DNA of 32,000 bases, taken from contig JBGQBI010000001.1 of NCBI GenBank assembly GCA_041494705.1, positions 180,001 through 212,000 on the forward strand. Reading direction: 5' to 3'. Below, in pieces: positions 2,374-32,000 of this stretch. The notes beneath the pieces are model-generated. The model worked only from the letters and a program-made list of their open reading frames with translations. It was not told the origin of the DNA and ran no database searches. Within the stretch, counting starts at the first letter, position 1. The number at the start of each line of letters is the position of its first letter. The DNA comes from Candidatus Methanoperedens sp. (GTDB lineage Archaea; Halobacteriota; Methanosarcinia; Methanosarcinales; Methanoperedenaceae). The translations under genes were made by a program, and so were the position numbers.

Positions 2374-3096
2374 ATGCCCTCACTTACCTTTCGCATAGTC
2401 CTCGTTGAACCTATCTATAGCGGCAATGTCGGCTCCGTAGCCCGTGTAATGAAGAATTTCGGATTCAGCAAGCTTGTACTCCTGAATCCATGCGAGCTTG
2501 ATATGCCCGCCCGCGTGATGTCGGTACATGCCTATGAAATAATAGAGAATGCCAGGATTGAATTCTCGCTAAAAGATGCGCTTTCCGGCTCAAATACAGT
2601 TGTTGGCATGACAGGGCTTCATGGAAAAACCGATAACAAGCACTTCCGGATGCCTGCTTATAGTCCCGGGCAGTTAAAAGATAAACTATCGGGAAAGAGC
2701 GGGATAGTCTCGCTCGTCTTCGGCAGGGAAGACGCCGGTCTTAGTAATGAGGAGCTTGAAATATGCGATATCATTGTAAATATCCCCACAAGCCCCGAAT
2801 ATCCAAGTATGAATCTATCCCATGCCGTAGCCGTTGTGCTTTACGAATTAAGCGATATCGAGGGCGGAGAAAGGTATCTTGCAGACCATTCTGATGTCGA
2901 GCTTTTATATGAGCACATTGATGAAGTACTCGATGATATCGAATACAAGGAACATAAAGAAGACAAGACAAAGCTTATGCTACAGAGAATATTAGGACGG
3001 GCTGAACTAACAGGGCGAGAGGTTCAGACATTGCGAGGTGTGCTGCGCCGCATTCAGTGGAAATTAAGAACTGGTGAATATGCAAAACCCGATTAA
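2374..3096 (+). CDS. trmJ: SpoU/TrmH-class RNA 2'-O-methyltransferase, TrmJ-like
   Basis: N-terminal 'IVLVEPIYSGNVGSVARVMKNFGF' plus C-terminal 'IVNIPTSPEYPSMNLSHAVAVVLYEL' are typical of the SPOUT knot motifs of TrmJ/LasT-type enzymes. Confidence 0.7.
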   Translation: MPSLTFRIVLVEPIYSGNVGSVARVMKNFGFSKLVLLNPCELDMPARVMSVHAYEIIENARIEFSLKDALSGSNTVVGMTGLHGKTDNKHFRMPAYSPGQLKDKLSGKSGIVSLVFGREDAGLSNEELEICDIIVNIPTSPEYPSMNLSHAVAVVLYELSDIEGGERYLADHSDVELLYEHIDEVLDDIEYKEHKEDKTKLMLQRILGRAELTGREVQTLRGVLRRIQWKLRTGEYAKPD

Positions 3097-3184
3097 ATTC
3101 ATACTCGGCTGCTTTTTCGGTACAAAACCAAAAATTGCAGAAAGCCAGCCCATTTTTCCTTCCGAACTCAAGGGAGACCTCAAG

Positions 3185-4585
3185 ATGGCTGAGTTCATCC
3201 CGTTCTTCATTGTGGCATCCATTGAAGTGGGAAACACTACAACCAAATGCATCCTGACAGCAACGAACATGAAGGACGGGCGCACGCGGCTTTTGAATAA
3301 GACCGTGAAAATGACACGGGATGTGAGGAAACCCAAACCGAATGAGAGGATTTTCGGCACAACCTTGAGCGGCGTGTCGCTGACGAGGGAATCGATATCT
3401 GAACTTGTCCGCGATACACTCCTCGAATCGCATAACGCTGTAAATCTTGATATAACAACAGACCTTGATTTCGCAGTGAGGTCAACGGGCGTTGTGGCTG
3501 GATTTTCATCGCCGCATGAAGTCGGGGAATTCATAAAAGCGCTTGCCGACGGCTGTCTTATTGCAGGCATCCCGCCAAAAAAGATGGTGCCTGCCATGTC
3601 TATTGATAACATACCTGTAAAATTTAAAGACCATACACTTATTGATAAGATTGTATTTACAGGAGCAGTAGGCGGTGTTCTCCCGCCAGTTGGTTCGACA
3701 GGGGTGGAAATCGTGGCAAACGAAATGGAAGGGGAACTTTCAACAGCGGGTATCAAAGAGGGCGCGAAATGGGCAGGCGTGGATTTCAGGAACCCTGTTT
3801 TTTCAATGGACTTCGGAACTACGCTGAAAGGGCGGATTACCAATAGCGATATACCGTATGCCAGGACTATCGCAAACCTGTGCGGTTATGCAGGCGCGAT
3901 TCCTGACGCCGTTATAAAAGGCACCGGGCTTGTGGATAAAAGATACGGGGCAGCGCTTGATTTATTTCATGACACGAAAGAACGAAGTATATGGCTTACA
4001 AAAAGCAGCGCCATTGAAAAATACGCAAAGAACATTCATGCGCTGATAACTATTGAAGTCGTGCCGGTGGACAGGAACAGGTACGGAAGCGTGCCGGTTG
4101 ACCCGGCGGCAGCGAAGGAAATAGGCGTTACACTTATCGGATGCGATGTGGGCGTGAACGGAAGCCTTATGCCAGAACTGACGGATATTGGTTCGGAAAT
4201 ATATTCAAAGCACGGATTAAAAACAATGTTCGCCACTCTCGACCTTGTCTCGGCTATGATGGTTGAACGGCTCGTGAAAATTGGTATGGATAATAACCTC
4301 ATCTCAGACAAAACATCCATAGGATTAACAGGAAGAGCTGCAATCACTGGCTGCAAACCTCACCTTATCCTGAAAAGCGTAGAAAAACTCGGGATTTTCA
4401 AAGAACCCAAAGACCACGTGGTGTTCGTGGACGACGGGCTGGCGCGGGGCGCGGCTGTGATGGCGCGCTGTATGAACTCGATGGGTGTACCGAAAAACCC
4501 AATCGGGGGGATACGCGGCGGCGGGTGCGTCCTGAACCAGCGCATCGAATATTATAAGAAATCAAAGGAGAGGAATACGATATGA
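3185..4585 (+). CDS. Methanogenesis marker protein 14-like (function unknown)
   Basis: 'FFIVASIEVGNTTTKCIL' near the N-terminus and the ~465-aa length fit my memory of methanogenesis marker 14. I chose the ATG at 3185 (GGAG 9 nt upstream) over the ORF-track start at 3074, which overlaps trmJ. Confidence 0.65.
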   Translation: MAEFIPFFIVASIEVGNTTTKCILTATNMKDGRTRLLNKTVKMTRDVRKPKPNERIFGTTLSGVSLTRESISELVRDTLLESHNAVNLDITTDLDFAVRSTGVVAGFSSPHEVGEFIKALADGCLIAGIPPKKMVPAMSIDNIPVKFKDHTLIDKIVFTGAVGGVLPPVGSTGVEIVANEMEGELSTAGIKEGAKWAGVDFRNPVFSMDFGTTLKGRITNSDIPYARTIANLCGYAGAIPDAVIKGTGLVDKRYGAALDLFHDTKERSIWLTKSSAIEKYAKNIHALITIEVVPVDRNRYGSVPVDPAAAKEIGVTLIGCDVGVNGSLMPELTDIGSEIYSKHGLKTMFATLDLVSAMMVERLVKIGMDNNLISDKTSIGLTGRAAITGCKPHLILKSVEKLGIFKEPKDHVVFVDDGLARGAAVMARCMNSMGVPKNPIGGIRGGGCVLNQRIEYYKKSKERNTI

Positions 4586-5034
4586 AAGCGCTTCTATTGA
4601 TGGGATGCCCTGAACTGCCTGTGCAGACGGCGGTAGCATTGTATATCGCCAACAAATTGAACCTCGAAGGTTTTGAGGTGACTGCCGCCGGGAATAAAGC
4701 CGCAATAAGCCTGCTCCTGAATTCTGACCCTGAAAAACATTATATCAAAAAGGTGATGGACCTTGACAGGTGCATCGGCGCTCTTGCCGAGAAGAAAATG
4801 GACTTTGACCTGTGCTTCGTGTTCATACACAGCGACAGCGGGATTTCGTATCTCGCCACAGTAAAATCCCTCTCAAAAGCAAAAACCGTGGCAGTTATCT
4901 TCGGGAAGGAAATCGAACCGCTCATCGAGGCAAGCGGGGATTCGGTTATCATTGCAGCAAGGGCTGTGCATAACCCAACGCCGCTGCGGGCGCAAATCGA
5001 CGGGGTGAAGTCATGGGCTGCATTGACGAGATGA
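4582..5034 (+). CDS. Conserved methanogen-specific small protein (DUF1890-like, from memory)
   Basis: ATGA start/stop overlap with the marker-14 gene. 'LLLMGCPELPVQTAVALYIANKL' resembles the methanogen-restricted DUF1890 family. The family name is recollection only. Confidence 0.55.
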   Translation: MKALLLMGCPELPVQTAVALYIANKLNLEGFEVTAAGNKAAISLLLNSDPEKHYIKKVMDLDRCIGALAEKKMDFDLCFVFIHSDSGISYLATVKSLSKAKTVAVIFGKEIEPLIEASGDSVIIAARAVHNPTPLRAQIDGVKSWAALTR

Positions 5035-5285
5035 ATTATGAGATTCTGCTGCCCAACAGTTCTTTTAAGGAGTGCGCCGAGTACATAAAGAAAAATTTCA
5101 AGGAGATATATTATGTCGAAGCGGGTTTTAAGATTTTTGATAATTATTTGGTAGGAGTGTCACCGATTCCGATAGCTGTGGATGGGGATTTTATCATCAT
5201 GCCGTATGTGAAGCCCTGCCACGGATGTTTTGTTCTCCGGATTCCGGGGAAGGAGGAAGTGGAGAGGATGAGGAAGGGGAAGTGA
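5031..5285 (+). CDS. Conserved methanogen-specific small protein (DUF1894-like, from memory)
   Basis: The ATG at 5031 forms a second ATGA overlap with the preceding stop (5032-5034). The ORF-track start at 5013 is the alternative. It is a small protein ending in a basic tail. Confidence 0.5.
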   Translation: MNYEILLPNSSFKECAEYIKKNFKEIYYVEAGFKIFDNYLVGVSPIPIAVDGDFIIMPYVKPCHGCFVLRIPGKEEVERMRKGK

Positions 5286-6352: not shown

Positions 6353-6640
6353 TTAAAATGGAAGCCAACCCGAGCCATCACATTTGGGATGATGCTTGCA
6401 GACCCACCTGCCACTTTTTGGATCCCACTTTATTTCTTTTTCCTTATAGGTTTCACCACAATGTTTACAACGTACATGCTTTTCTGATTGCAAATCCGGA
6501 TGAAAAGGAGGTATTGTTCCATCTTTACGCGATTTCATATCCTCAGCTTGCTTACTTCCAGGTATCATACCCAAAAGATAACTTTTCAACCTTAAAAACG
6601 TTAGTACATGCAAGCCAGATTTATATCCCCTGACCGCCAT
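6353..6640 (-). CDS. Hypothetical small zinc-ribbon protein (start probably internal)
   Basis: Contains 'CKHCGETY...(x13)...CKHHPKCDGSG'. The ATG at 6640 would leave only 11 nt to the divergent dinB start, so M25 (6568) or M35 (6538) are more plausible starts. Confidence 0.4.
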   Translation of the reverse strand: MAVRGYKSGLHVLTFLRLKSYLLGMIPGSKQAEDMKSRKDGTIPPFHPDLQSEKHVRCKHCGETYKEKEIKWDPKSGRWVCKHHPKCDGSGWLPF

Positions 6641-6651
6641 TGCTTATATTA

Positions 6652-7734
6652 ATGCCCAACCCAAGAATCATCCTCCACGTTGACATGGACTATTTCTTCG
6701 CCCAGTGTGAGGAGCGGGAACACCCCGAACTCAAAGGCAAACCTGTGGTTATCTGCGTATATTCCGGGCGCGGCGGGGACAGCGGCGCCGTGAGCACGAG
6801 CAACTACGGGGCGCGCAAATTCGGGATAAAAGCAGGAATACCCATTTCCCATGCAAAAAAACTAAAACCCGATGCTATATTCCTGCCCGTCAATATGGAG
6901 CTTTACCGCAGTATCTCGGATGAAGTAATGGAGATAGTGCGCGGACATTGCATTTCGCTTGAACAGGAAAGCGTGGATGAGGCATTTTGCGACATCACAG
7001 GCAAAGTTACTGATTTTGATGAAGCGAAATTAGTCGCCCTGCGAATAAAAGAGGAAATCAGGCAAAAAGTGGGACTGACCTGCTCGGTCGGGGCTGCGCC
7101 GAATAAACTCATTGCCAAGATAGCATCGGATTTTCGAAAACCCGATGGATTGACAGTCGTGAAACCCGGCGAAATCCTGCAATTCCTGACGCCCCTTAAA
7201 ATCACAGACCTTACAGGTGTTGGCAAAAAGACCGGGGAGAGATTGAACGAACTTGGAGTAAAGACCATCGGCGAGCTTTCAAAACTCTCCGCGGATGAAC
7301 TCGTCCGGGAATTCGGGCAGGCAAAAGGAGTATGGCTAAAACAGGCATCACAGGGCATAGATGATTCGCCTGTTGTTGAACGTGAAGGCACGGAACAAAT
7401 CGGGCGCATAACCACGCTTAAGGAAGATACCAGGGATTTGAACCTCATTTATGAAGTTATCAATGAACTTTCGGATGAGGTTTATAAGAAATTGGAATTA
7501 AGGAAACTCAGCTTCAAATCAGTCACTTTTGTGGCAATTTCCACAGATTTTAAAACCCACACCAAAACCCATACGCTGGGCGCGCCTGCAAAAGACCCGG
7601 ATACTATTAAAGCGACAGCGCGTGAGCTAGCGACAGCCTTCATGGCGGAATATCATCTCAGTCTTCGAAGGGTAGGGGTAAGAGTGGCCAATCTTGTCGA
7701 GGATAAGGGGCAGAGAACGCTTGGGGAATTTTAG
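6652..7734 (+). CDS. dinB: Y-family DNA polymerase IV (Dbh/Dpo4-type)
   Basis: 'ILHVDMDYFFAQCEEREHPELKGKPVVI', 'GIKAGIP', 'LEQESVDEAFCDIT' and 'CSVGAAPNKLIAKIASDFRKPDGLTV' are all hallmark Y-family motifs. I prefer the ATG at 6652 to the TTG at 6640. Confidence 0.92.
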   Translation: MPNPRIILHVDMDYFFAQCEEREHPELKGKPVVICVYSGRGGDSGAVSTSNYGARKFGIKAGIPISHAKKLKPDAIFLPVNMELYRSISDEVMEIVRGHCISLEQESVDEAFCDITGKVTDFDEAKLVALRIKEEIRQKVGLTCSVGAAPNKLIAKIASDFRKPDGLTVVKPGEILQFLTPLKITDLTGVGKKTGERLNELGVKTIGELSKLSADELVREFGQAKGVWLKQASQGIDDSPVVEREGTEQIGRITTLKEDTRDLNLIYEVINELSDEVYKKLELRKLSFKSVTFVAISTDFKTHTKTHTLGAPAKDPDTIKATARELATAFMAEYHLSLRRVGVRVANLVEDKGQRTLGEF

Positions 7735-11687: not shown

Positions 11688-13277
11688 TTACTCATCCAGT
11701 ATTGCTTCTGCCGTCTCTCGATATGCATTCATCACATAAGGAATGCCTGAAATCTTTGAAGCTTCTTCGGTCAGAGACATAACATCCTGGCGTCCGATAG
11801 TCGAAATATTGAACCTGCGCGAGCCTGCCATGAGCTGCTGCAAGCCTGTCCTGAACTTCTGGGCATAGGTGTAAATGCCTACTGCTCCCAGCGGGAGATT
11901 CTTCATGTCATCGCCGAATTTCTGGGCAAGCTCTTCATAGCATACGAATATCTCCTCAGGCCTGCTTCCGAACTCGGAAACCGTCTTTGGCAGATCGCCA
12001 TCTTTTATCCAGTTGCCGATATTCTTACCCACGAACCCGGGTATCATCAATGCCCTTCCCATGCATACCGCCTTGAAGTACGGCGAACCCATTGCCAGCG
12101 CTTTATACACGCCGTCCTCGCTTGAAAAGCCGCCTGCCATGGCAAGATCGGGTACTCTCATGCCTTTTTTGCTCAATTTTTCAGCGAACTCATATATCAA
12201 TGACTGGAGGTAGAATGTCGGTATTCCCCATTCTTCCATCATGGGCCAGGGGCTCATGCCAGTACCGCCGGGCGCGCCGTCTATTGTGAGCAGGTCTATC
12301 TTGGCTTCTGAGCAGTATTTTATTGCCATTGCAGCTTCAACCATTGAATAAGCGCCCGTCTTCAGTGTGACTCTCTTGAAACCAAGGTCACGCAAGCGGT
12401 CTACTTCTTCTAAGAATCCTTCCTTTGTGACAAATCCAAGTCTTGAGTGCCGCTCAAATTCCTTTATAGCTCCTTCCTTGTATGCAACCTTTATTGCCGG
12501 GTCTTCGGGGTCGGGCGTCACGATGTAACCTCTTTTCTTGAGTTCAACCGCGCGTTCGATGCTGTTGACTTTTATCTCGCCGCCTATGCATTTTGCGCCC
12601 TGCCCCCATTTAAGTTCGATTGTATCCAGGTCATGTTTCGAAGATACGTATTCGGCAACGCCGAGCCTTGTATCTTCAACATTCATCTGGACGAGGATTT
12701 CACCAAAACCTTCATAATATTTCTTGTAAGTGGTTATCCTGCGGTCCATTTCAGGTGAGCTCTTAATCTTCTTGTTGCTGTCAAGCACAAGTCCGGGGTC
12801 GATGCCGCACACGTTCTCACCGCATACAAGTGTAATTCCTGAAATTGCAGCCCCCGCTGCGAAGTGTTCCCAGTTCTTGCGTGCGATTTCGGTGGAGCCG
12901 AGCGCGCCTGTGAAAATCGGCACTTTCATGCGGACTTTCTTATCCCAGCCGTATTCGGTCTCTGTGTTTACTCTCGGGAATATAGCCGTATCCGGATTGG
13001 GCTCTTCTCCTTCAGGTAATCCCCATGCTCCAACTGCGTAGCCCTGTATGTTCAAATGGGAATAATCTACCGGATAGTTTTTGTCTGCGCCTGCGGTTAT
13101 GTTTCCAAAAGGGCCCGGATAAATCACTTCACGTCCCCTGAATGAGGATTTGAAGATTTCACAGTTGCCGCGGCAACCATCTATACACCGGGTGCATATC
13201 CCTGACATCGGGGATACGCTTTTTGAGCGATTAAAGGTCTGCGTCGCTTCATTCGCATTTGGTTGTCTAAGATTCAT
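11688..13277 (-). CDS. Glutamate synthase-related protein (GltB FMN-binding domain-2 homologue with an N-terminal Cys cluster)
   Basis: 'CTRCIDGCRGNCEIF' near the N-terminus suggests Fe-S binding. 'IDGAPGGTGMSPWPMMEEWGIPT' and 'LAMAGGFSSEDGVYKALAMG' are typical of the glutamate synthase FMN domain. GGAGG lies 7 nt upstream of the ATG. Confidence 0.85.
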   Translation of the reverse strand: MNLRQPNANEATQTFNRSKSVSPMSGICTRCIDGCRGNCEIFKSSFRGREVIYPGPFGNITAGADKNYPVDYSHLNIQGYAVGAWGLPEGEEPNPDTAIFPRVNTETEYGWDKKVRMKVPIFTGALGSTEIARKNWEHFAAGAAISGITLVCGENVCGIDPGLVLDSNKKIKSSPEMDRRITTYKKYYEGFGEILVQMNVEDTRLGVAEYVSSKHDLDTIELKWGQGAKCIGGEIKVNSIERAVELKKRGYIVTPDPEDPAIKVAYKEGAIKEFERHSRLGFVTKEGFLEEVDRLRDLGFKRVTLKTGAYSMVEAAMAIKYCSEAKIDLLTIDGAPGGTGMSPWPMMEEWGIPTFYLQSLIYEFAEKLSKKGMRVPDLAMAGGFSSEDGVYKALAMGSPYFKAVCMGRALMIPGFVGKNIGNWIKDGDLPKTVSEFGSRPEEIFVCYEELAQKFGDDMKNLPLGAVGIYTYAQKFRTGLQQLMAGSRRFNISTIGRQDVMSLTEEASKISGIPYVMNAYRETAEAILDE

Positions 13278-13502
13278 ATTTCCTCCAAGTTGGGTTTTTG
13301 AAGAAGACGGTGTCTATTTTTTCACGTTTCTTCTCATACATTGTAACAGTTTTTTCGCGTTCTCTCAAAAACGCTCGGAAGCGGAAGGGTGTTTCCTTTA
13401 TTTAAATCTTGCGAGATTCTCTTCTCTCGCTATTCTGTGCCATCTTACAACCTTTAAATTTAATCTCTCTGATAAAAAAGGTAAAAAAGCAGGAATCAAA
13501 TC

Positions 13503-14606
13503 CTACTTTTCTTTGCTGAATACCGCAGCTCTTGATATTGTTTCATGCGGGAAGGATTCTGCTAAGGCTTCCATTGCTTTTCTTATCGGTTTAACTACTT
13601 CCTGCGGTATGACAGGTGCGGGTTTTGCTTCTCCGGTGAGGAACGGGCATGTTACGCCTGTCAGCACAGCCATCACGCGCACCGCCCCGGTAAGCATCGG
13701 GTCAACCTTGGCTCCCCATATCACCCTTTTGGTATTCGGAACCTTATCCATTATCTGTTCTCCGGCTACAGCCACCTCTTCCAGCGTCAGGTCTTCGCCT
13801 CCCACGATGTGAATGAGTACACCGTATGCTGTCGATATGTCGGTGATATCGAGCAGGGGGGTCGATAACGCCTGCGAGACCGCTTTCTCCACGCGGTTCG
13901 CGCCGTCGCCTTCGCCAATTCCTATCGAGGAAATTCCTCCGCGTTCCATTATGGCGCGAAGGTCGGCATAATCCAGGTTAATAAGGCTCGGCTGGGTTAT
14001 GGCATCTGTCACGTTCTTGACAAAAGAACCTACAAGCGCGTTCGCTACGGCAAGCGCCTCTTTGAGGGGCAGGTTGCCTGCCACTTCCCTGAGTTTTGAA
14101 TTATCAATGACCACTATCGAATCGCAAACCTCGGCTAGTGCTCTTACGGCGTCACGCGCTTTTTCGCGCCTTGTCATTTCAATTGTGAATGGGATTGTAA
14201 CGCATGCAATTGTGAGAGCGCCCGCTTCTCTTCCAACGCCTGCAAAAACCGGGATTGCGCCTGTACCCGAGCCTCCTCCGAGACCTGCTACGAGGAATAG
14301 AAGATTGGTATCTTTCAAATCTTCCTTTATTTCGGCTAAATTCTCCTTTGCAGCTTCAGCTCCTCTTTCAGGGAATCCGCCGCAGCCGTGCCCTTTGCAC
14401 AGCTTCTCACCGAGCAGGATAATTTTATCTGCCCTTGTCATTGTGCTAAGATGCGAAGCATCCGTATTAGCACCGATTATTTTACCGCCGGCGAGTTTCT
14501 TGTCAGCAATCCATGTTACTATGTTGCAGCCAGCACCACCCAGGCCCACAACAGTCACAGATGGGCGTGATGTCTTTACCTTTTCCAATAATTCTTCTCG
14601 AGTCAT
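13503..14606 (-). CDS. ftsZ: FtsZ/tubulin-family GTPase (atypical FtsZ paralogue A)
   Basis: 'VVGLGGAGCNIV' is the T1 loop and 'AGLGGGSGTGAIPV' is the tubulin signature loop. 'NLDYADLRAIM' and 'VIWGAKVD' also fit. It aligns along its whole length with archaeal FtsZ as I remember it. Confidence 0.9.
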   Translation of the reverse strand: MTREELLEKVKTSRPSVTVVGLGGAGCNIVTWIADKKLAGGKIIGANTDASHLSTMTRADKIILLGEKLCKGHGCGGFPERGAEAAKENLAEIKEDLKDTNLLFLVAGLGGGSGTGAIPVFAGVGREAGALTIACVTIPFTIEMTRREKARDAVRALAEVCDSIVVIDNSKLREVAGNLPLKEALAVANALVGSFVKNVTDAITQPSLINLDYADLRAIMERGGISSIGIGEGDGANRVEKAVSQALSTPLLDITDISTAYGVLIHIVGGEDLTLEEVAVAGEQIMDKVPNTKRVIWGAKVDPMLTGAVRVMAVLTGVTCPFLTGEAKPAPVIPQEVVKPIRKAMEALAESFPHETISRAAVFSKEK

Positions 14607-27165: not shown

Positions 27166-28119
27166 TTAATCTTCAAAACCTTCCAATATCCATTCTTTTT
27201 TCTCTTCTAAATTTATTTCGTTAATCGTGGTTGAGAACCTAAATTTAGCAGTAGTAAAAGTGTCCACACGTTTTTTCACTTCATTCGCCAAAGCTTCTTT
27301 GAATTTTCCCTTAATAATTGTTCCAGATTCATCAATTAAAAATCCAAAGGTAAAGTAAAATAAACTTATTTCCTTTATAAATCCTTTATACACAACAGAT
27401 TCCTCTGGAATATTTTCAGCTTGAAGGATAACGTCATATATTCTTTTAGCCAATTCGCTTGAAATTTTTTGTCTCTTAAAATTTCCAGTGGTAACTTTAT
27501 CATACATTATTATGTCAGCCTTGTTTTTATATAAACTCTCGAGAAAATCCCTATATTTAATTATCACTCTTTTTCCTAACTCGTCACTAACCTCCCTAAT
27601 TTTATCCTTATTATCCTCGCATTCAATTAAATCACTAAAGCGTTGAAAAGCCATTTTAGCCGACGAATCTGCAATTTGCGGTTCGTGGCTGGACACTATA
27701 AATCTAAATGACCCTGTTCCTGTAGCGACTAAGTCCAATTGTGATGCTCTAAGGATTTCGTTGGGTATTATTCCTTTGAATGTAGCTTTTCCAGACAAAG
27801 ACTGGGATATTGAGGACACAATATCTTGTAGATTGCCCATAAGATTCCCAAAGAACGATAGCGAAATTCTATGCCCTTCCACAGGAGCCCCATCTATAAT
27901 GAAGTCAAAACTATCGAATTGGAATCTTTCAAAGGAATTTCGTAATTCTAATAACAAGTATGCTTCTCTGTCCTTAAAATTTCGCTGTCGCACTCTTAAT
28001 GAAAATTTATTGGAATATTTTGATAGTAATATTTCATTTTCTCGTATCAACTCATATAAATCTGAGAGTTCTTCTAGAATTAAGGTGGGACGCCTCTGAT
28101 TATTATTCATGGCTTTCAT
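27166..28119 (-). CDS. Orphan 317-aa protein, last gene of the low-GC cassette
   Basis: A long uninterrupted ORF in an approximately 30% GC region. It overlaps the upstream NTase-like gene by 17 nt, or by 8 nt if M4 is the start. It has no TM segments and no motif I can assign. Confidence 0.7.
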   Translation of the reverse strand: MKAMNNNQRRPTLILEELSDLYELIRENEILLSKYSNKFSLRVRQRNFKDREAYLLLELRNSFERFQFDSFDFIIDGAPVEGHRISLSFFGNLMGNLQDIVSSISQSLSGKATFKGIIPNEILRASQLDLVATGTGSFRFIVSSHEPQIADSSAKMAFQRFSDLIECEDNKDKIREVSDELGKRVIIKYRDFLESLYKNKADIIMYDKVTTGNFKRQKISSELAKRIYDVILQAENIPEESVVYKGFIKEISLFYFTFGFLIDESGTIIKGKFKEALANEVKKRVDTFTTAKFRFSTTINEINLEEKKEWILEGFED

Positions 28120-28732
28120 CCCTTTGATAATTTTCTATGTAAGACACGGTATTCGATAAATCTATTTCAAGTATACCTTTCGGGTTGTTGTTTCTATCGT
28201 GCCCTAAATATTTTTTCCAAAATTCGATTTCTCTGACGCTAGCGACATAATCTTCTGGAGATTCGCTAGTATATACTACAATAGTTGCTAGAATGTGACA
28301 CATAAATTCAGATTTTACCCTTGTTTTATCAGTCACTCGCCAATAAGTATCCTGTCCCGCCTCATCAAGTTCATCGAGTTTATTTGCATCCAAATGGTTG
28401 ATAATATCTATATCTGTGGGGTCGTTCTTATTTGTCGTATAACTTCCATTGAGCCATTGCTTCGAGCAAATATTTAGAGAAACCAATTCTTTGCAATAAT
28501 TAACATAGCCATCGAATATCCTAGCACGAGTGGATGAACCATTGAAATTTAAAACACAGTGCTCTTCAATTTCAGTGGCATTTGTGACTACAATCCCTGG
28601 AGGCAAATTTCCATTACTGTCAAAATCAGGAATCATTATTTTCGACCATACCACAACATTATAACAAACAACTCTAATGTTTTTGTTATATAAATAATTG
28701 TACCCACTCCCACTAGCATATTTCAAGCTCAT
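28103..28732 (-). CDS. Minimal nucleotidyltransferase-like protein (pol-beta superfamily NTase fold; DUF6932-like from memory)
   Basis: 'NGSYTTNKNDPTDIDI' fits G-S-x9-D-x-D. 'MIPDFDSNGNLPPGI' and the C-terminal 'NPKGILEIDL' resemble an uncharacterised NTase-like family. That family usually starts at the 'MIPDF' position, so the ATG at 28636 is an alternative start. Confidence 0.6.
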   Translation of the reverse strand: MSLKYASGSGYNYLYNKNIRVVCYNVVVWSKIMIPDFDSNGNLPPGIVVTNATEIEEHCVLNFNGSSTRARIFDGYVNYCKELVSLNICSKQWLNGSYTTNKNDPTDIDIINHLDANKLDELDEAGQDTYWRVTDKTRVKSEFMCHILATIVVYTSESPEDYVASVREIEFWKKYLGHDRNNNPKGILEIDLSNTVSYIENYQRDESHE

Positions 28733-28735
28733 GTT

Positions 28736-28894
28736 TTATATATTATAAATCCCGCCATACTTTACTATGTTGTTTCTTACTGCCTCTTTTACAAATTCTT
28801 GGATTGAAACAAATCCAAGCCGTTTATCAGTTTCAATAATTCTCTTAGCTTCGTTTATCATCAGAATCCGCAGGGTCAGGATTAATAAAATCAA
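28736..28894 (-). CDS. Unlisted small ORF, ribbon-helix-helix (CopG/Arc-like) candidate
   Basis: My own translation of the minus strand gives '(M)ILLILTLRILMINEAKRIIETDKRLGFVSIQEFVKEAVRNNIVKYGGIYNI*'. 'LTLRI' would be the beta-strand and 'GFVSIQEFVKEAVR' looks like RHH helix 2. Candidate starts are the ATG at 28861 (41 aa) and a TTG at 28894 that overlaps the stop of the GXGXG gene (TTGA). The stop (28736-28738) lies 3 nt before the ATG at 28732. Confidence 0.35.
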   Translation of the reverse strand: MILLILTLRILMINEAKRIIETDKRLGFVSIQEFVKEAVRNNIVKYGGIYNI

Positions 28895-29853
28895 TCCACT
28901 TTTCTCACAACTACCGACCCATCCCTCATCCGTACCAGCCTCTCCCTCACGAGCCCATACTTGTGATAGCCCATAGCCTCAACATGCCCTATATCAAGAT
29001 ATTTCATCAACAGCTTCGCATCCTCCTGCGCCATCGCAAGCTCCTCCACAGGCGGCGCGGTCTTTACCTTCTTCTTAGCAAAAATCGCCCCGTCCTTCAT
29101 ATTCGCTCCCACGAAGCCTTTCGCATCCTTCAAAATCAGCACTCCTTTTTTCATGTACGCGCCTGCAAATTCGCCAGCCGTGCCTTCGACGATAACTGTT
29201 CCTCCGTCAAGATGCGCACCCGTGTTCATACCTGCGTCTCCCATGACATGAACCGTTCCTTTTTGCATCAACAGCCCCGTGCCGTTGTAAACATCCCCGT
29301 CCACAGCGACAAGTGCATCACAATTACACCGCGCCGCTATTGTACCGCGAAGCACTCCGTCATCAAGCAGCAAATGCTTTTCTCGCTCATCGAAGTTATT
29401 CTTAATAAGAACATCTTTTCCCAAACCCGCGCAGAGGCTGTCGGTTATTGAGCGGAACTTTCGATAACCAGGCTCATCAGACATAACCTCGACCACATTT
29501 CCGACAGGTTCTTCCACGACGCCTTTCACATATATTTCCCCGGAAACCATACCCATTCCCATTTCGGAAGAAACATCACCATCGACATACACTTTCCCGG
29601 CCTTTTCAGGCGCCCCGGTACCCCCGAAATGCGCAAGGTCAACGCCCATGCTGTAAGCAAGCCTTTTTCCTGCGCTGCCTGTAATATGCACATCGCGCGC
29701 ATTTCTTAATTCATTTACGAGGTCTTTATAGGTGTAATTTGTTCTTTTTTGGGACGGGATTGGGTTTTCCGGGCGAATCCTGGTGCCCTGCCATGTGAAA
29801 TTATAGGTATAATCGCAGAGGTTATCAATCCTTTCGGTCAGTTCAAGTTCCAT
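28891..29853 (-). CDS. GXGXG-repeat protein (glutamate synthase domain-3 / FwdC-like beta-helix)
   Basis: Repeated G-x-G-x-G strands: 'HITGSAGKRLAYSMG', 'VYVDGDVSSEMGMGMVSGEIYVKG', 'VHVMGDAGMNTGAHLDGGTVIVEGTAGEFAGAYMKKGVLIL'. It starts 2 nt after the stop of the upstream FtsZ-like gene. Confidence 0.8.
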   Translation of the reverse strand: MELELTERIDNLCDYTYNFTWQGTRIRPENPIPSQKRTNYTYKDLVNELRNARDVHITGSAGKRLAYSMGVDLAHFGGTGAPEKAGKVYVDGDVSSEMGMGMVSGEIYVKGVVEEPVGNVVEVMSDEPGYRKFRSITDSLCAGLGKDVLIKNNFDEREKHLLLDDGVLRGTIAARCNCDALVAVDGDVYNGTGLLMQKGTVHVMGDAGMNTGAHLDGGTVIVEGTAGEFAGAYMKKGVLILKDAKGFVGANMKDGAIFAKKKVKTAPPVEELAMAQEDAKLLMKYLDIGHVEAMGYHKYGLVRERLVRMRDGSVVVRKVD

Positions 29854-29855
29854 AC

Positions 29856-30833
29856 CTACGTTAATTTATTCGGGTCCATGACACACGTCAGTACAGCCGT
29901 AACCTTGACATGGCCAGCAAGAGATTCGTCCACATTCGCGCCCCAGACGATACGCCCTGTGTTCGGGGCTTTCTGGAGAATGATTTCACCGGCCTGTGTG
30001 ACCTCACCGAGTGTCATATCCTCGCCGCCTGAGATATGTACCAGCACCCCGTATGTTCCCGAGATGTCAGAGACATCAAGGAGCGGCGTGGAAAGCGCCT
30101 GTTCCATTGCCTTCTCAATGCGGTTTTCGCCTTCTGCCTCGCCTATGCCGATTGCGGATATGCCGCCCCGTTCCACAACGCTTCGCAGGTCTGAGTAGTC
30201 AAGGTTCACAAGGCTTGCCTGCGTGATTGTTTCGGTTATGTTCCTGATAAAATTGCCAACAAATTCATTCGCTACCGCAAAACCTTCACGGAGCGGGAGA
30301 GTGCCTGCAATGGCTCTCAGTCTTGAATTGTCTATAACTACCAGGGAATCGCATCTGTCAGCAAGAGCTTTTATGCCGAAAATCGCCTTCTTGCGCCTTA
30401 AAACTTCATAGCCGAACGGGAGGGTAACACAACCTATCGTCAGAATCCCGGCTTCACGTATGGCCTCGGCGATTACAGGCGCCGCTCCTGTTCCCGAACC
30501 TCCACCCATGCCTGCGATAATGAATACAAGGTTTGAATCCAAAAGTTCTTTTTTTATTTCGTTAAGGCTCTCCCGTGCAGCTTCAGTGCCTCGTTCTGCA
30601 AAACCGCCGCAGCCCTTCCCCTGATAGGTTTGCTCACCAAGGAGTATTTTCACATCGGCTTTTACAACCATCAAATGCGTTGCATCAGTATCAGCCGCAA
30701 TTATTTTACTTCCCACTATCTCTTTTTGCGCTATCCATGAAACGATATTGCATCCCGCACCGCCAAGACCGATTATTGCCACGGTGGGTTTTGCTGCGTT
30801 TGCAAGTTCGGAAATTCGTGAATCGAGTGTCAT
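29856..30833 (-). CDS. ftsZ: FtsZ/tubulin-family GTPase (atypical FtsZ paralogue B)
   Basis: 'IIGLGGAGCNIV', 'AGMGGGSGTGAAPV', 'NLDYSDLRSVV' and 'IVWGANVD' all fit the family. It is about 64% identical to paralogue A over the N-terminal GTPase region by hand alignment (66 of about 103 positions). Confidence 0.9.
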   Translation of the reverse strand: MTLDSRISELANAAKPTVAIIGLGGAGCNIVSWIAQKEIVGSKIIAADTDATHLMVVKADVKILLGEQTYQGKGCGGFAERGTEAARESLNEIKKELLDSNLVFIIAGMGGGSGTGAAPVIAEAIREAGILTIGCVTLPFGYEVLRRKKAIFGIKALADRCDSLVVIDNSRLRAIAGTLPLREGFAVANEFVGNFIRNITETITQASLVNLDYSDLRSVVERGGISAIGIGEAEGENRIEKAMEQALSTPLLDVSDISGTYGVLVHISGGEDMTLGEVTQAGEIILQKAPNTGRIVWGANVDESLAGHVKVTAVLTCVMDPNKLT

Positions 30834-30961
30834 TTATGTACCTCTTTTATATTTTTGTTACGAAGACCTACTTATATTATATCCTTCATAAGATTATATT
30901 TATCTCACTAATCCGCCATCATAAGATATATAACCCTTATTCAATAAGATTGCCAGGAACA

Positions 30962-32000
30962 ATGAGCAAAATAATCCTCGACCCCAACATCAAATACCTC
31001 GAAGGCACGCAGCGCGTCTTTGACCCGGAAACAACGCTTGCCAACACCACAAAGCTTCTTCCTGAAATCGGGGTGACGCGCATTGCGAACATCACAGACC
31101 TTGACCGCGTGGGCATTCCGGTTTTCTCAGCTATCAGGCCGAGCGCTGCGGCGGGAGCAATATCCATATACTCAGGAAAGGGAGCAACCGAGACCAATGC
31201 GAGGATATCCGCAATCATGGAAAGTTTTGAGCGCTGCCTTGCGGAGCAGCCCGAGGTCAGCATCAACCTCGGCGGAATTGAGCTTGGAACCGAAAGAGTG
31301 GCAGATACATACGAATCGCTCAGCGAGAGCTATCCCACATTATATCCGGATGCTCTTCTTTTGCCCCAGCCTCTGGCTGAGTTCACGAGCCTTGAATGGG
31401 TCAAGGGGGATGACATAATGAACGATGTTGAAGTGTTCGTGCCGGAAAATGCAGTTTTTCACCCATACAACCCACAAAACGGAAACAAGCTTTTCAGAAG
31501 CAACACCAACGGGCTTGCATCAGGAAATACAATTGAGGAGGCGGTGCTCCACGGCTTGCTTGAAGTAGTAGAAAGGGACGCGCTCAGCATTGCGGAATTC
31601 ACACGCAATCCCGGCAGGGAAATCGTGCTTTCTGAGAGCGATGGGCTGAATTACGAATTGAAACGGAAAATGGAAGAAGCAGGAATCAAGGTCAAGGTCT
31701 GGCTGCTTGGCTCTGATGTGGATATTCCCACAGTCGTTACCGCGCTTGATGATACTGTCCTGAAAGACCCCGCTTTGCTGGTCATGGGAGCAGGTGCGCA
31801 TCTCTCGCCTGAGATAGCGGTAACACGGGCGCTCACCGAGGCAGCGCAGAGCCGTGTGGTCCAGATACATGGCGCGCGCGAGGATACGGACAGGGAGCAG
31901 GTGGTGCGGACATTCGGCTATGACCACATGAAAAAGATGAACAGCTACTGGTATGAGGAGCTGGAGCCCGTCCGGATGGATGATTTGAAAGACGGTTCAG
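30962..32000 (+). CDS. ycaO: YcaO-domain protein (methanogenesis marker 1 type), 3' end beyond the window
   Basis: It is not in the ORF track because no stop is reached. My translation is open from the ATG at 30962 to nt 32000. It reads 'GVTRIANITDLDRVGIPVFSAIRP...GKGATETNARISAIMESFERC' and 'SNTNGLASGNTIEEAVLHGLLEVVERDALSI', which are classic YcaO motifs. Confidence 0.9.
   Translation, partial: MSKIILDPNIKYLEGTQRVFDPETTLANTTKLLPEIGVTRIANITDLDRVGIPVFSAIRPSAAAGAISIYSGKGATETNARISAIMESFERCLAEQPEVSINLGGIELGTERVADTYESLSESYPTLYPDALLLPQPLAEFTSLEWVKGDDIMNDVEVFVPENAVFHPYNPQNGNKLFRSNTNGLASGNTIEEAVLHGLLEVVERDALSIAEFTRNPGREIVLSESDGLNYELKRKMEEAGIKVKVWLLGSDVDIPTVVTALDDTVLKDPALLVMGAGAHLSPEIAVTRALTEAAQSRVVQIHGAREDTDREQVVRTFGYDHMKKMNSYWYEELEPVRMDDLKDGS

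What the first reader, a model, noticed from the sequence alone, without database searches (positions are those of the whole stretch)
28891..30833. Two FtsZ-family paralogues, each directly upstream of a different glutamate-synthase-domain gene
Paralogue B (29856-30833) is followed after 2 nt by a GXGXG beta-helix protein, a homologue of GltB domain 3 / FwdC (28891-29853). Paralogue A (13503-14606) lies on the same strand about 16 kb away. After a 225-nt spacer it is followed by a homologue of the GltB FMN domain 2 that carries an extra Cys cluster (11688-13277).

The two FtsZ-like proteins are about 64% identical over the GTPase domain by hand alignment. They look like a lineage-specific duplication rather than the deep FtsZ1/FtsZ2 split.

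Having two FtsZ genes is normal for euryarchaea. I know of no described functional link between a cytoskeletal GTPase and split glutamate-synthase-like modules. The linkage occurs twice, each time with a different GltS domain, which argues against coincidence. It suggests an uncharacterised complex, for example a filament-scaffolded redox or amidotransferase-type enzyme.
Basis: partly seen in the sequence, partly recalled or inferred. Interest (0 to 1): 0.7.

Follow-up and report, generated by a model that had tools for sequence, protein, structure and literature searches.

The report
Extra FtsZ copies, coincidental enzyme neighbours
A methane-oxidising archaeon carries two recently duplicated, unusual copies of the cell-division protein FtsZ, but their position next to two "glutamate-synthase-like" genes reflects local genome history and not a conserved FtsZ–enzyme machine.

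Summary
Two FtsZ genes, 62% identical, lie on the minus strand. FtsZ-B is 2 nt upstream of a GXGXG β-helix gene. FtsZ-A is 225 nt upstream of a GltB-domain-2-like gene.

The proposed FtsZ–GltS complex is not supported.
- FtsZ-A pairing: 0 of 16 FtsZ-A orthologue loci carry the domain-2-like gene, and 0 of 7 loci of that gene carry an FtsZ, including three Methanoperedenaceae contigs. The gene is 77–80% identical in other methanogens and in bacteria. The spacer holds two T6 runs, a TATA box and a separate ribosome-binding site.
- FtsZ-B pairing: FtsZ-B lies within 700 nt in 23 of 38 Methanoperedenaceae loci. The other loci, and Methanohalophilus, keep the β-helix gene without it. That protein resembles FwdC more than glutamate synthase.

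What is really there is a Methanoperedenaceae-specific expansion of a divergent, FtsZ2-leaning subfamily. A and B are monophyletic in 50/50 bootstraps. The paralogues differ in their C-termini: tail-less (B), a conserved peptide (A), or a transmembrane-like anchor (a third type). None has the canonical SepF-binding tail.

Interest is modest.

The parts
29856..30833 (-). FtsZ-B: tail-less (325 aa) paralogue of a divergent Methanoperedenaceae FtsZ subfamily
   Evidence: Pfam Tubulin 141.6 bits + FtsZ_C 92.6 bits. TIGR00065 311 bits against a 295.2 cutoff. More than 100 orthologue clusters, all exactly 325 aa. No residues follow the globular core. Motifs GKGCGGFA, GGGSGTG, VIDNSRL, SLVNLDYSD.
28891..29853 (-). 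FwdC-like GXGXG beta-helix protein (320 aa), probably co-transcribed with FtsZ-B
   Evidence: Pfam GXGXG 32.2 bits (cutoff 32.5). TIGR03122 FwdC 62.5 bits against a 130.65 cutoff. PDB profile hits FwdC at 54.7 bits and GltB at 12.9 bits. AlphaFold model pLDDT 75.5; best Foldseek matches are FhcC/FwdC, then GltB. 2-nt junction with FtsZ-B.
13503..14606 (-). FtsZ-A: paralogue with a conserved C-terminal peptide (...KPIRKAME...ISRAAVFSKEK)
   Evidence: Pfam Tubulin 120.6 bits + FtsZ_C 96.4 bits. TIGR00065 320.3 bits. The tail is conserved across about 25 orthologues. Motifs GHGCGGFP, GLGGGSGTG, VIDNSKL, SLINLDYAD.
13278..13502 (-). Spacer between FtsZ-A and the domain-2-like gene. It holds two T6 runs (13488-13483 and 13479-13474), a TATA-like TTTAAATA (13406-13399) and GGAGG (13286-13282).
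   Evidence: Read directly from the sequence. Reading these as an archaeal oligo-T terminator, a TATA box and a Shine-Dalgarno site rests on established knowledge of archaeal transcription and is an inference.
11688..13277 (-). Stand-alone FMN-binding glutamate-synthase-family protein (GltB domain-2-like, 529 aa) with an N-terminal CxxCxxxCxxxC cluster
   Evidence: Pfam Glu_synthase 58 bits over residues 284-412. No NCBIfam or PDB sequence hit. Homologues are 77-80% identical in Methanothrix, Methanolobus, Methanoregula, Methanolinea and bacteria. Cys cluster present in 116/116 members.
30962..32000 (+). ycaO (5' part; runs off the window), transcribed divergently from FtsZ-B. tfuA follows outside the window. 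The ORFs at 30937-31266 and 31520-31927 on the minus strand are its shadow ORFs.
   Evidence: Orthologous ORF in L001: Pfam YcaO 280 bits, with the next gene TfuA at 155 bits. Gene calls in the source contig L142 and in L143. Start codon read.
30834..30961 (.). AT-rich divergent intergenic region between ycaO and FtsZ-B (presumed promoters)
   Evidence: Sequence. A-rich and TATA-like stretches, with AGAGGT 7 nt before the FtsZ-B ATG. Promoter function is inferred, not tested.

Best explanation
The window comes from a Candidatus Methanoperedens genome that carries several paralogues of one divergent, FtsZ2-leaning FtsZ subfamily. FtsZ-A and FtsZ-B are two products of duplications inside Methanoperedenaceae. 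Both keep the GTP-binding and T7 catalytic motifs, so both are most likely polymerising GTPases (inferred). The paralogues differ mainly in the C-terminus. B has no tail. A has a conserved peptide that probably docks an unknown partner. A third type (A') ends in a hydrophobic, transmembrane-like helix. None carries the canonical GID tail that binds SepF. My best guess, which is an inference, is that tail-less B co-assembles with its tailed relatives as a modulator. The two 'glutamate-synthase' neighbours have separate, historical explanations. FtsZ-B occupies a fixed site between the divergent ycaO-tfuA pair and an older FwdC-like beta-helix gene. It is probably co-transcribed with that gene, and the arrangement has been inherited by descent in part of the family. 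FtsZ-A is a stand-alone gene with its own terminator-like signal. In this strain a rearrangement placed it upstream of an independently transcribed, very highly conserved FMN enzyme gene. No FtsZ-GltS complex needs to be invoked.
For: Shown. (1) A+B monophyly in 50/50 bootstraps; the nearest outside neighbour is in the DNxxL (FtsZ2-like) group in 46/50. Tree and tails. (2) FtsZ-A orthologue loci: 0 of 16 with at least 1 kb downstream carry the domain-2-like gene; their neighbours are ThiC (convergent), FAD-oxidoreductase/tfuA/ycaO and others. (3) Domain-2-like loci: 0 of 7 with DNA have an FtsZ, and two further gene tables without DNA list none. These include Methanolobus, Methanoregula (next to glnA/amt/P-II) and three Methanoperedenaceae contigs. 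(4) The spacer holds T6/T6, TTTAAATA and GGAGG. (5) GXGXG loci: FtsZ-B lies within 100 nt upstream in 20, within 100-700 nt in 3, further away in 2, and is absent in 13 of 38 Methanoperedenaceae loci. It is absent in 3 of 3 evaluable outgroup loci. M. nitroreducens ANME-2d (L010) has ycaO | GXGXG with no FtsZ. (6) Sampled from B's side, B always sits beside ycaO-tfuA. (7) In L058 and L063, A and B lie only about 4 kb apart, consistent with a local duplication. (8) One Methanoperedens MAG has at least 7 ftsZ-annotated genes (PMC12138975 Suppl. Table 7). Multi-copy FtsZ1/FtsZ2 is reported as frequent in archaea (PMC8178401). A Crenarchaeota+Halobacterota FtsZ2 sub-group was already noted (PMC9871819).
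Against: The FtsZ-B/GXGXG pair is tight (0-54 nt in 20 loci) and has persisted while B diverged to about 70% identity, which is also what a functional operon would look like. Placement in the FtsZ2 branch is only moderate: A and B are about 38-40% identical on average to all three FtsZ families, and the wider 8-member 'GCGG' clade was not recovered in bootstraps. I could not show that this genome also has canonical FtsZ1 and FtsZ2. Polymerisation, co-assembly and transcription units are inferred, not measured.
Confidence: 0.75

Rival explanations
1. FtsZ-B and the FwdC-like beta-helix protein form a genuine lineage-specific two-gene module. They would be translationally coupled, with the beta-helix protein acting as a binding partner or regulator of tail-less FtsZ-B. 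FtsZ-A next to the domain-2-like gene would still be coincidental.
For: A 2-nt junction with no room for a promoter. FtsZ-B lies within 100 nt upstream in 20 of 38 Methanoperedenaceae loci. The pair is retained across B identities of 70-100%. B-type is invariably 325 aa and tail-less, so it needs some other way to be localised.
Against: The beta-helix family is older than B and does without it. It stands alone in 13 of 38 Methanoperedenaceae loci and in Methanohalophilus, ANME-2 and Methanosarcinales MAGs. A second paralogue pairs with a small NIR_SIR protein instead (L016/L017). IS elements or extra ORFs separate the pair in L002, L009, L011, L030 and L135 without loss of either gene. All B orthologues share one locus, so the synteny can be explained by descent alone.
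Confidence: 0.15
2. One reading: FtsZ-like filaments scaffold a split glutamate-synthase-like redox or amidotransferase enzyme, with each paralogue dedicated to one GltS-derived module.
For: In this genome two FtsZ paralogues are each followed on the same strand by a gene with a domain also found in GltB. The junctions are reproduced in independent assemblies.
Against: FtsZ-A with the domain-2-like gene is seen in no other lineage sampled (0/16 and 0/7). Terminator-like and promoter-like signals lie between them. The domain-2-like family is 77-80% identical in bacteria and in methanogens where no FtsZ lies within 6 kb of it. The GXGXG protein is FwdC-like and not GltB-like. No GltB domain-1 (amidotransferase) gene is nearby. 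The two loci show no other shared components.
Confidence: 0.03
3. A and B are simply the ordinary FtsZ1 and FtsZ2 orthologues of this archaeon.
For: Both pass the generic FtsZ equivalog model, and having two FtsZs is normal for euryarchaea (PMC8178401).
Against: They are each other's closest relatives (62% identity; 50/50 bootstrap). Neither groups with the PDB-verified M. jannaschii FtsZ1. Both lack the nearly invariant GID C-terminal motif (PMC8178401). At least two further paralogue types of the same clade exist in related genomes.
Confidence: 0.02

Closest known systems
Archaeal FtsZ2 (e.g. Haloferax volcanii HVO_0581)
   Same: Tubulin/FtsZ GTPase domain plus FtsZ_C domain. DN(N/S)(R/K)L and SL(I/V)NLDY(A/S)D motifs around the T7 loop. 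The nearest outside relatives fall in this group in 46/50 bootstraps. A published FtsZ2 tree already showed a Crenarchaeota+Halobacterota sub-group (PMC9871819).
   Different: The T3 loop is GxGCGG(F) instead of GxGAGG. The G-box has Ser (GGGSGTG). There is no GID SepF-binding C-terminal motif. The tails are replaced by nothing (B), a novel conserved peptide (A) or a transmembrane-like helix (A'). No RHH/ParD-type neighbour is present. Mean identity to FtsZ2-like representatives is only about 39-40%.
Archaeal FtsZ1 (M. jannaschii MJ0370, PDB 1W58/1FSZ)
   Same: Same fold family. It is the best PDB hit for FtsZ-B (255 bits).
   Different: FtsZ1 has PN(D/E)(K/R)L and GL(I/V)N(V/L)DFAD motifs and usually sits with translation genes (PMC8178401). 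A and B do not cluster with it.
FwdC / FhcC (subunit C of formylmethanofuran dehydrogenase and of the formyltransferase/hydrolase complex)
   Same: GXGXG right-handed beta-helix in the C-terminal half. Best sequence-profile and Foldseek matches.
   Different: It scores below the FwdC family cutoffs (62.5 against 130.65 bits). It has an extra, confidently modelled N-terminal region of about 170 aa. It is not in an fwd/fmd operon. TM-scores are only about 0.3.
Glutamate synthase large subunit GltB (FMN domain 2 and GXGXG domain 3)
   Same: The 529-aa protein matches Pfam Glu_synthase. The beta-helix protein shares the GXGXG fold with GltB domain 3.
   Different: The two genes are 16 kb apart, are not co-conserved and have no amidotransferase domain-1 partner nearby. 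The domain-2-like protein aligns over only about 130 residues and has no PDB sequence hit. GltB is a weak hit for the beta-helix protein (E = 0.45).

Membership tests
FtsZ (Tubulin/FtsZ superfamily, TIGR00065) | Tubulin/FtsZ GTPase domain followed by the FtsZ C-terminal domain | tested here: met
   PF00091 and PF12327 both lie above the gathering cutoffs for A and B.
FtsZ (Tubulin/FtsZ superfamily, TIGR00065) | Score above the curated equivalog cutoff | tested here: met
   311.0 bits (B) and 320.3 bits (A) against 295.2. The margin is narrow.
FtsZ (Tubulin/FtsZ superfamily, TIGR00065) | GTP-binding G-box (GGGTGTG) and T7-loop catalytic NxDxxD | tested here: met
   GGGSGTG in both (Thr to Ser). 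NLDYAD in A and NLDYSD in B. The T3 loop is unusual, GxGCGG.
FtsZ (Tubulin/FtsZ superfamily, TIGR00065) | GTP-dependent polymerisation and localisation to a division ring | not testable with these tools
   Needs biochemistry or imaging.
Archaeal FtsZ1 | Clusters with reference FtsZ1 (M. jannaschii 1W58) and carries PN(D/E)(K/R)L / GLxNxDFAD motifs | tested here: not met
   MjFtsZ1 falls in the PN group, and A and B do not.
Archaeal FtsZ2 | Phylogenetic placement within the FtsZ2 family | tested here: inconclusive
   The nearest outside neighbour is in the DNxxL group in 46/50 bootstraps, but mean identity is about equal to all three families. No verified FtsZ2 reference was available.
Archaeal FtsZ2 | C-terminal GID-type SepF-binding motif (nearly invariant in archaeal FtsZ1 and FtsZ2; PMC8178401) | tested here: not met
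   B has no tail. The A tail ends ...ISRAAVFSKEK. A' ends in a hydrophobic helix.
Glutamate synthase GltB domain 3 / Pfam GXGXG | Score above the Pfam GXGXG gathering cutoff and closest to GltB | tested here: not met
   32.2 bits against 32.5. The PDB profile gives GltB 12.9 bits (E = 0.45) against FwdC 54.7 bits.
FwdC (formylmethanofuran dehydrogenase subunit C) | Score above the TIGR03122 / NF042910 cutoffs and location in an fwd/fmd operon | tested here: not met
   62.5 against 130.65 bits, and 52.2 against 340 bits. The neighbours are ftsZ, ycaO-tfuA, DUF6932 and aromatic amino-acid genes.
Glutamate synthase FMN domain (Pfam Glu_synthase PF01645) | Score above the Pfam cutoff | tested here: met
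   58 bits against 20.4, but only residues 284-412 align. No NCBIfam or PDB sequence hit. Glutamate-synthase activity itself was not tested.
Conserved functional gene pair (FtsZ + GltS-domain gene) | Adjacency conserved across independent lineages | tested here: not met
   A with the domain-2-like gene: 0/16 and 0/7 loci. B with GXGXG: 23/38 loci within Methanoperedenaceae only, and 0/3 evaluable outgroup loci.

The most novel reading that the evidence does not exclude
Tail-less FtsZ-B and the FwdC-like beta-helix protein are a dedicated, translationally coupled two-component cytoskeletal module peculiar to Methanoperedens. The beta-helix protein would bind or regulate FtsZ-B filaments. This module would belong to a wider, undescribed division of labour among three or four FtsZ paralogues that are tail-less, peptide-tailed or self-anchored by a transmembrane helix.
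Probability: 0.12. Interest if true: 0.6.

Novelty: new variant of a known kind. Interest (0 to 1): 0.3.

Why it matters
As proposed, a cytoskeletal GTPase scaffolding a split glutamate synthase would have been a new kind of enzyme organisation, but the comparative evidence does not support it. What remains is smaller. Methanoperedenaceae, which are key anaerobic methane oxidisers, have diversified one divergent FtsZ lineage into paralogues that have dropped the canonical SepF-binding tail. In its place they have no tail, a new conserved peptide, or a transmembrane-like anchor of their own. That bears on how FtsZ filaments are tethered and regulated in archaea, and it gives concrete candidates for localisation studies. 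It does not overturn current views, since multi-copy FtsZ is already documented.

Tried and rejected
(1) I suspected a third, canonical ftsZ1 at 6640-7734 because related contigs place ribosomal L1-L10-L12 genes beside the domain-2-like gene. Pfam shows it is a Y-family DNA polymerase.

(2) The ORFs 'U109' and 'U135' upstream of FtsZ-B looked conserved by tblastn. They are shadow ORFs of ycaO on the opposite strand.

(3) I tried to label the FtsZ1 and FtsZ2 clades from source names of 20 representatives. The names only say 'FtsZ', and none came from Methanosarcinales.

(4) Pende et al. Supplementary Data 1 does not include Methanoperedens.

(5) An 8-member 'GCGG T3-loop' clade suggested by the first NJ tree was not recovered in bootstraps (0/50), so I do not claim it.

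(7) I could not establish whether this genome also has canonical FtsZ1 and FtsZ2. The protein searches list only the best 120 hits, and these were saturated by Methanoperedens orthologues.

(8) A Foldseek match of the beta-helix model to MinC (rank 23, E = 4.8) is not significant and is not used as evidence.

(9) The sigma-70 promoter scanner was not used because it does not apply to archaea. I read the intergenic regions by eye instead.
Full report
OBSERVATION. The window is from a Candidatus Methanoperedens (ANME-2d) genome. The best hits of its proteins are 90-100% identical to Methanoperedens MAG proteins, and the FtsZ-B locus maps to a 2.07 Mb JGI contig (L142). FtsZ-B (29856-30833, 325 aa) and FtsZ-A (13503-14606, 367 aa) carry Pfam Tubulin and FtsZ_C domains and narrowly pass the NCBIfam FtsZ equivalog cutoff. 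They are 62% identical over 314 residues. FtsZ-B is followed after 2 nt by a 320-aa GXGXG protein. FtsZ-A is followed after 225 nt by a 529-aa protein with a partial Pfam Glu_synthase match and an N-terminal CxxCxxxCxxxC cluster. An archaeal rRNA operon lies between the two loci. No third FtsZ-like sequence is in the window. Both junctions are reproduced in other assemblies.

THE FtsZ-A / DOMAIN-2-LIKE PAIR IS STRAIN-SPECIFIC. The 529-aa protein belongs to a very highly conserved family, with hits 77-80% identical in Methanothrix, Methanolobus, Methanohalophilus, Methanoregula, Methanolinea and also in bacteria (Caldicellulosiruptoraceae, Omnitrophota, Syntrophales). All 116 full-length hits keep the Cys cluster. 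In Methanolobus zinderi, in Methanoregula (where it sits near glnA, amt and P-II) and in a third genome it is a stand-alone gene with no FtsZ within 6 kb. The same holds in three Methanoperedenaceae contigs whose protein is 86% identical and in two further places for which only gene tables were available. Conversely, a metagenome scan with FtsZ-A returned 80 loci. Of the 16 A-type loci with at least 1 kb of downstream sequence, none carries this gene. Their downstream neighbours are a convergent ThiC, or an FAD-oxidoreductase followed by tfuA-ycaO, or unrelated genes. In the window, the FtsZ-A stop is followed within 15 nt by two T6 runs. Further on there is a consensus TTTAAATA, and a GGAGG lies just upstream of the next ATG. 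By established knowledge of archaeal transcription, these signals suggest termination followed by re-initiation. This step is inferred.

THE FtsZ-B / GXGXG PAIR IS LINEAGE-RESTRICTED SYNTENY. I scanned one genome per GTDB species with an alignment of the GXGXG family, which gave 47 loci.
- Of 38 evaluable Methanoperedenaceae loci, FtsZ-B lies within 100 nt upstream in 20, within 100-700 nt in 3, further away in 2, and is absent in 13.
- The loci without it include M. nitroreducens ANME-2d (L010), L027, L028 and L031. There the beta-helix gene sits directly beside the divergent ycaO-tfuA pair with nothing in between.
- BLZ2 and METP1 have a second GXGXG paralogue preceded by a small NIR_SIR-type protein (L016/L017).
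- In Methanohalophilus (three species), an ANME-2 MAG and two Methanosarcinales MAGs the orthologue is 48-51% identical. The three Methanohalophilus loci, which have enough upstream sequence, show no FtsZ within 6 kb; the three MAG loci have under 1.1 kb upstream, and the ORF before the gene in two of them is not an FtsZ.
- B-type FtsZs sampled without reference to GXGXG always lie next to ycaO-tfuA. In one of these loci an IS110 transposase follows B instead of the GXGXG gene.

So B occupies a single inherited site. Its co-transcription with the beta-helix gene is likely, given the TAGgtATG junction. However, the beta-helix family predates B and functions without it.

THE PARTNERS ARE NOT CLEARLY TWO HALVES OF GLUTAMATE SYNTHASE. 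The beta-helix protein falls just under the Pfam GXGXG cutoff. By profile search of the PDB it hits FwdC at 55 bits and GltB at 13 bits (E = 0.45). An AlphaFold model (pLDDT 75.5) matches FhcC and FwdC first, then GltB, and only over the C-terminal half. It also fails the FwdC family cutoffs and is not in an fwd operon. I therefore call it FwdC-like and do not file it under either family. No amidotransferase (GltB domain 1) gene is near either locus.

WHAT THE FtsZs ARE. An exhaustive search of 50%-identity representatives found one close cluster (P0242, 64% identical, with degenerate GTP motifs). The next-best single-domain hits, at 45-50% identity, include Bathyarchaeota, Nitrososphaerales and Aenigmarchaeota MAGs where a source name was available. 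Among the best 150 representatives, motifs and tails define three groups:
- a bacterial group (PNQNL, with PAFLR tails);
- an archaeal PN(D/E)(K/R)L group, which contains the PDB-verified M. jannaschii FtsZ1;
- an archaeal DNxxL / SLINLDYAD group, many of whose members have GI(D/E)-type tails.

A, B and P0242 group together in 50/50 bootstraps, and their nearest outside neighbour is in the DNxxL group in 46/50. Their mean identity to all three groups is about 38-40%, so the FtsZ2 assignment is only moderately supported. This fits a published note of an odd Crenarchaeota+Halobacterota sub-group within FtsZ2 (PMC9871819).

A tree of 78 FtsZ ORFs from the fetched loci resolves three paralogue types inside the Methanoperedenaceae clade:
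- B: 325 aa, no tail;
- A: a conserved C-terminal ...KP(I/L)R(E/Q)AME...ISRAAVFSKE(K/R) peptide;
- A': a Pro/Glu/Lys-rich linker ending in a hydrophobic, transmembrane-like helix.

A fourth, tail-less type lies about 1.5 kb from sepF. None has the GID motif that is reported as nearly invariant in archaeal FtsZ1 and FtsZ2 and that binds SepF (PMC8178401). In L058 and L063, A and B are only about 4 kb apart, which suggests a local duplication. One Methanoperedens MAG has at least seven ftsZ-annotated genes, and multi-copy FtsZ1/FtsZ2 is described as frequent in archaea.

MECHANISM AND VERDICT. Shown: the duplication is lineage-specific; the A pairing is not conserved; the B pairing is conserved only within part of one family; the GTPase motifs are intact; the C-termini differ. 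Inferred: A and B polymerise; tail-less B acts by co-assembly with its tailed relatives; FtsZ-A and the downstream enzyme gene are transcribed separately; FtsZ-B and the beta-helix gene share a transcript. The double 'FtsZ next to a GltS domain' pattern is best read as coincidence produced by one inherited insertion site and one strain-specific rearrangement (confidence about 0.75). The main surviving alternative is a genuine B/beta-helix module (about 0.15). In terms of novelty this is a new variant of a known kind: divergent FtsZ paralogues with replaced C-termini. Interest is modest at 0.3.

Noticed in passing
L081-L106, L116 (e.g. L105:4992-6170; L088:4992-6182): A third paralogue type (A', 75-77% identical to FtsZ-A) has a PEPK-rich linker and ends in a hydrophobic, transmembrane-like helix (e.g. 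YIWYAIILLIILILVWYF). It looks like an FtsZ with its own membrane anchor. Its neighbours are SRP54/IleRS, or an MBL hydrolase, SAM hydroxide adenosyltransferase and flagellins.
   Followed up: partly
P0242 (representative protein, 405 aa): The closest representative to FtsZ-A (64% identical) has degenerate GTP-binding motifs (GLGGFGYT, GLEEGTEIG, HGYGNYP) and an 84-aa tail. It may be a catalytically dead FtsZ paralogue.
   Followed up: no
L140:2930-3907 (GCA_040961345.1): A fourth, tail-less 325-aa FtsZ type (64% identical to B) lies in an LSM-PUA-SepF-ZPR1 neighbourhood, about 1.5 kb downstream of sepF, and is not next to any GXGXG gene.
   Followed up: no
window 11688-13277; L048-L054: The 529-aa FMN 'glutamate synthase family' protein is 77-80% identical between methanogens and bacteria (Caldicellulosiruptoraceae, Omnitrophota, Syntrophales). 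It always carries CxxCxxxCxxxC and has no PDB or NCBIfam match. In Methanoregula it sits near glnA/amt/P-II. In L053 a second paralogue is in an operon-like row with NuoE-like, NuoF-like and ferredoxin-like genes. This conservation is remarkably high for an uncharacterised enzyme.
   Followed up: partly
window 30962-32000 (+); L001:2947-4918: ycaO-tfuA lies divergently next to the FtsZ-B/GXGXG site in most Methanoperedens genomes, and directly next to the GXGXG gene where FtsZ-B is absent. By my recollection, not checked here, this pair is the McrA thioglycine-forming system. The minus-strand ORFs at 30937-31266 and 31520-31927 are its shadows.
   Followed up: partly
L016:4282-6966, L017 (Methanoperedens BLZ2, METP1): A second GXGXG paralogue is preceded by a 325-aa small NIR_SIR (sulfite/nitrite reductase-like, 4Fe-4S) protein and a PNPOx-like protein. 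This hints at a redox role for this beta-helix family.
   Followed up: no
window 27166-28732 (-): A DUF6932 gene plus an unannotated 317-aa gene sit between the GXGXG gene and the DeoC-type aldolase/DHQS-II (archaeal aromatic amino-acid) genes, here and in L142/L143. A related genome (L136) has an HTH-CBS gene at this position, and in several others (L002-L005) the aldolase follows GXGXG directly. This looks like a small strain-specific insertion.
   Followed up: no
P0241 (826 aa), P0243 (744 aa), P0244 (840 aa); Several representative proteins contain two complete FtsZ cores in one polypeptide. These are either tandem FtsZ-FtsZ fusions or merged gene calls.
   Followed up: no
L135:5268-6515; L002:2077-5901: Mobile-element genes separate FtsZ-B from the GXGXG gene in some genomes: an IS110-family transposase in L135 and two large paralogous ORFs in L002. 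The junction therefore tolerates disruption.
   Followed up: no
window 3074-5285 (+): A DUF2114-DUF1890-DUF1894 gene trio (archaeal families of unknown function) is present. The same trio lies next to the ribosomal L1-L10-L12 genes and the domain-2-like gene in L052, which shows that this region has been rearranged relative to other Methanoperedenaceae.
   Followed up: no
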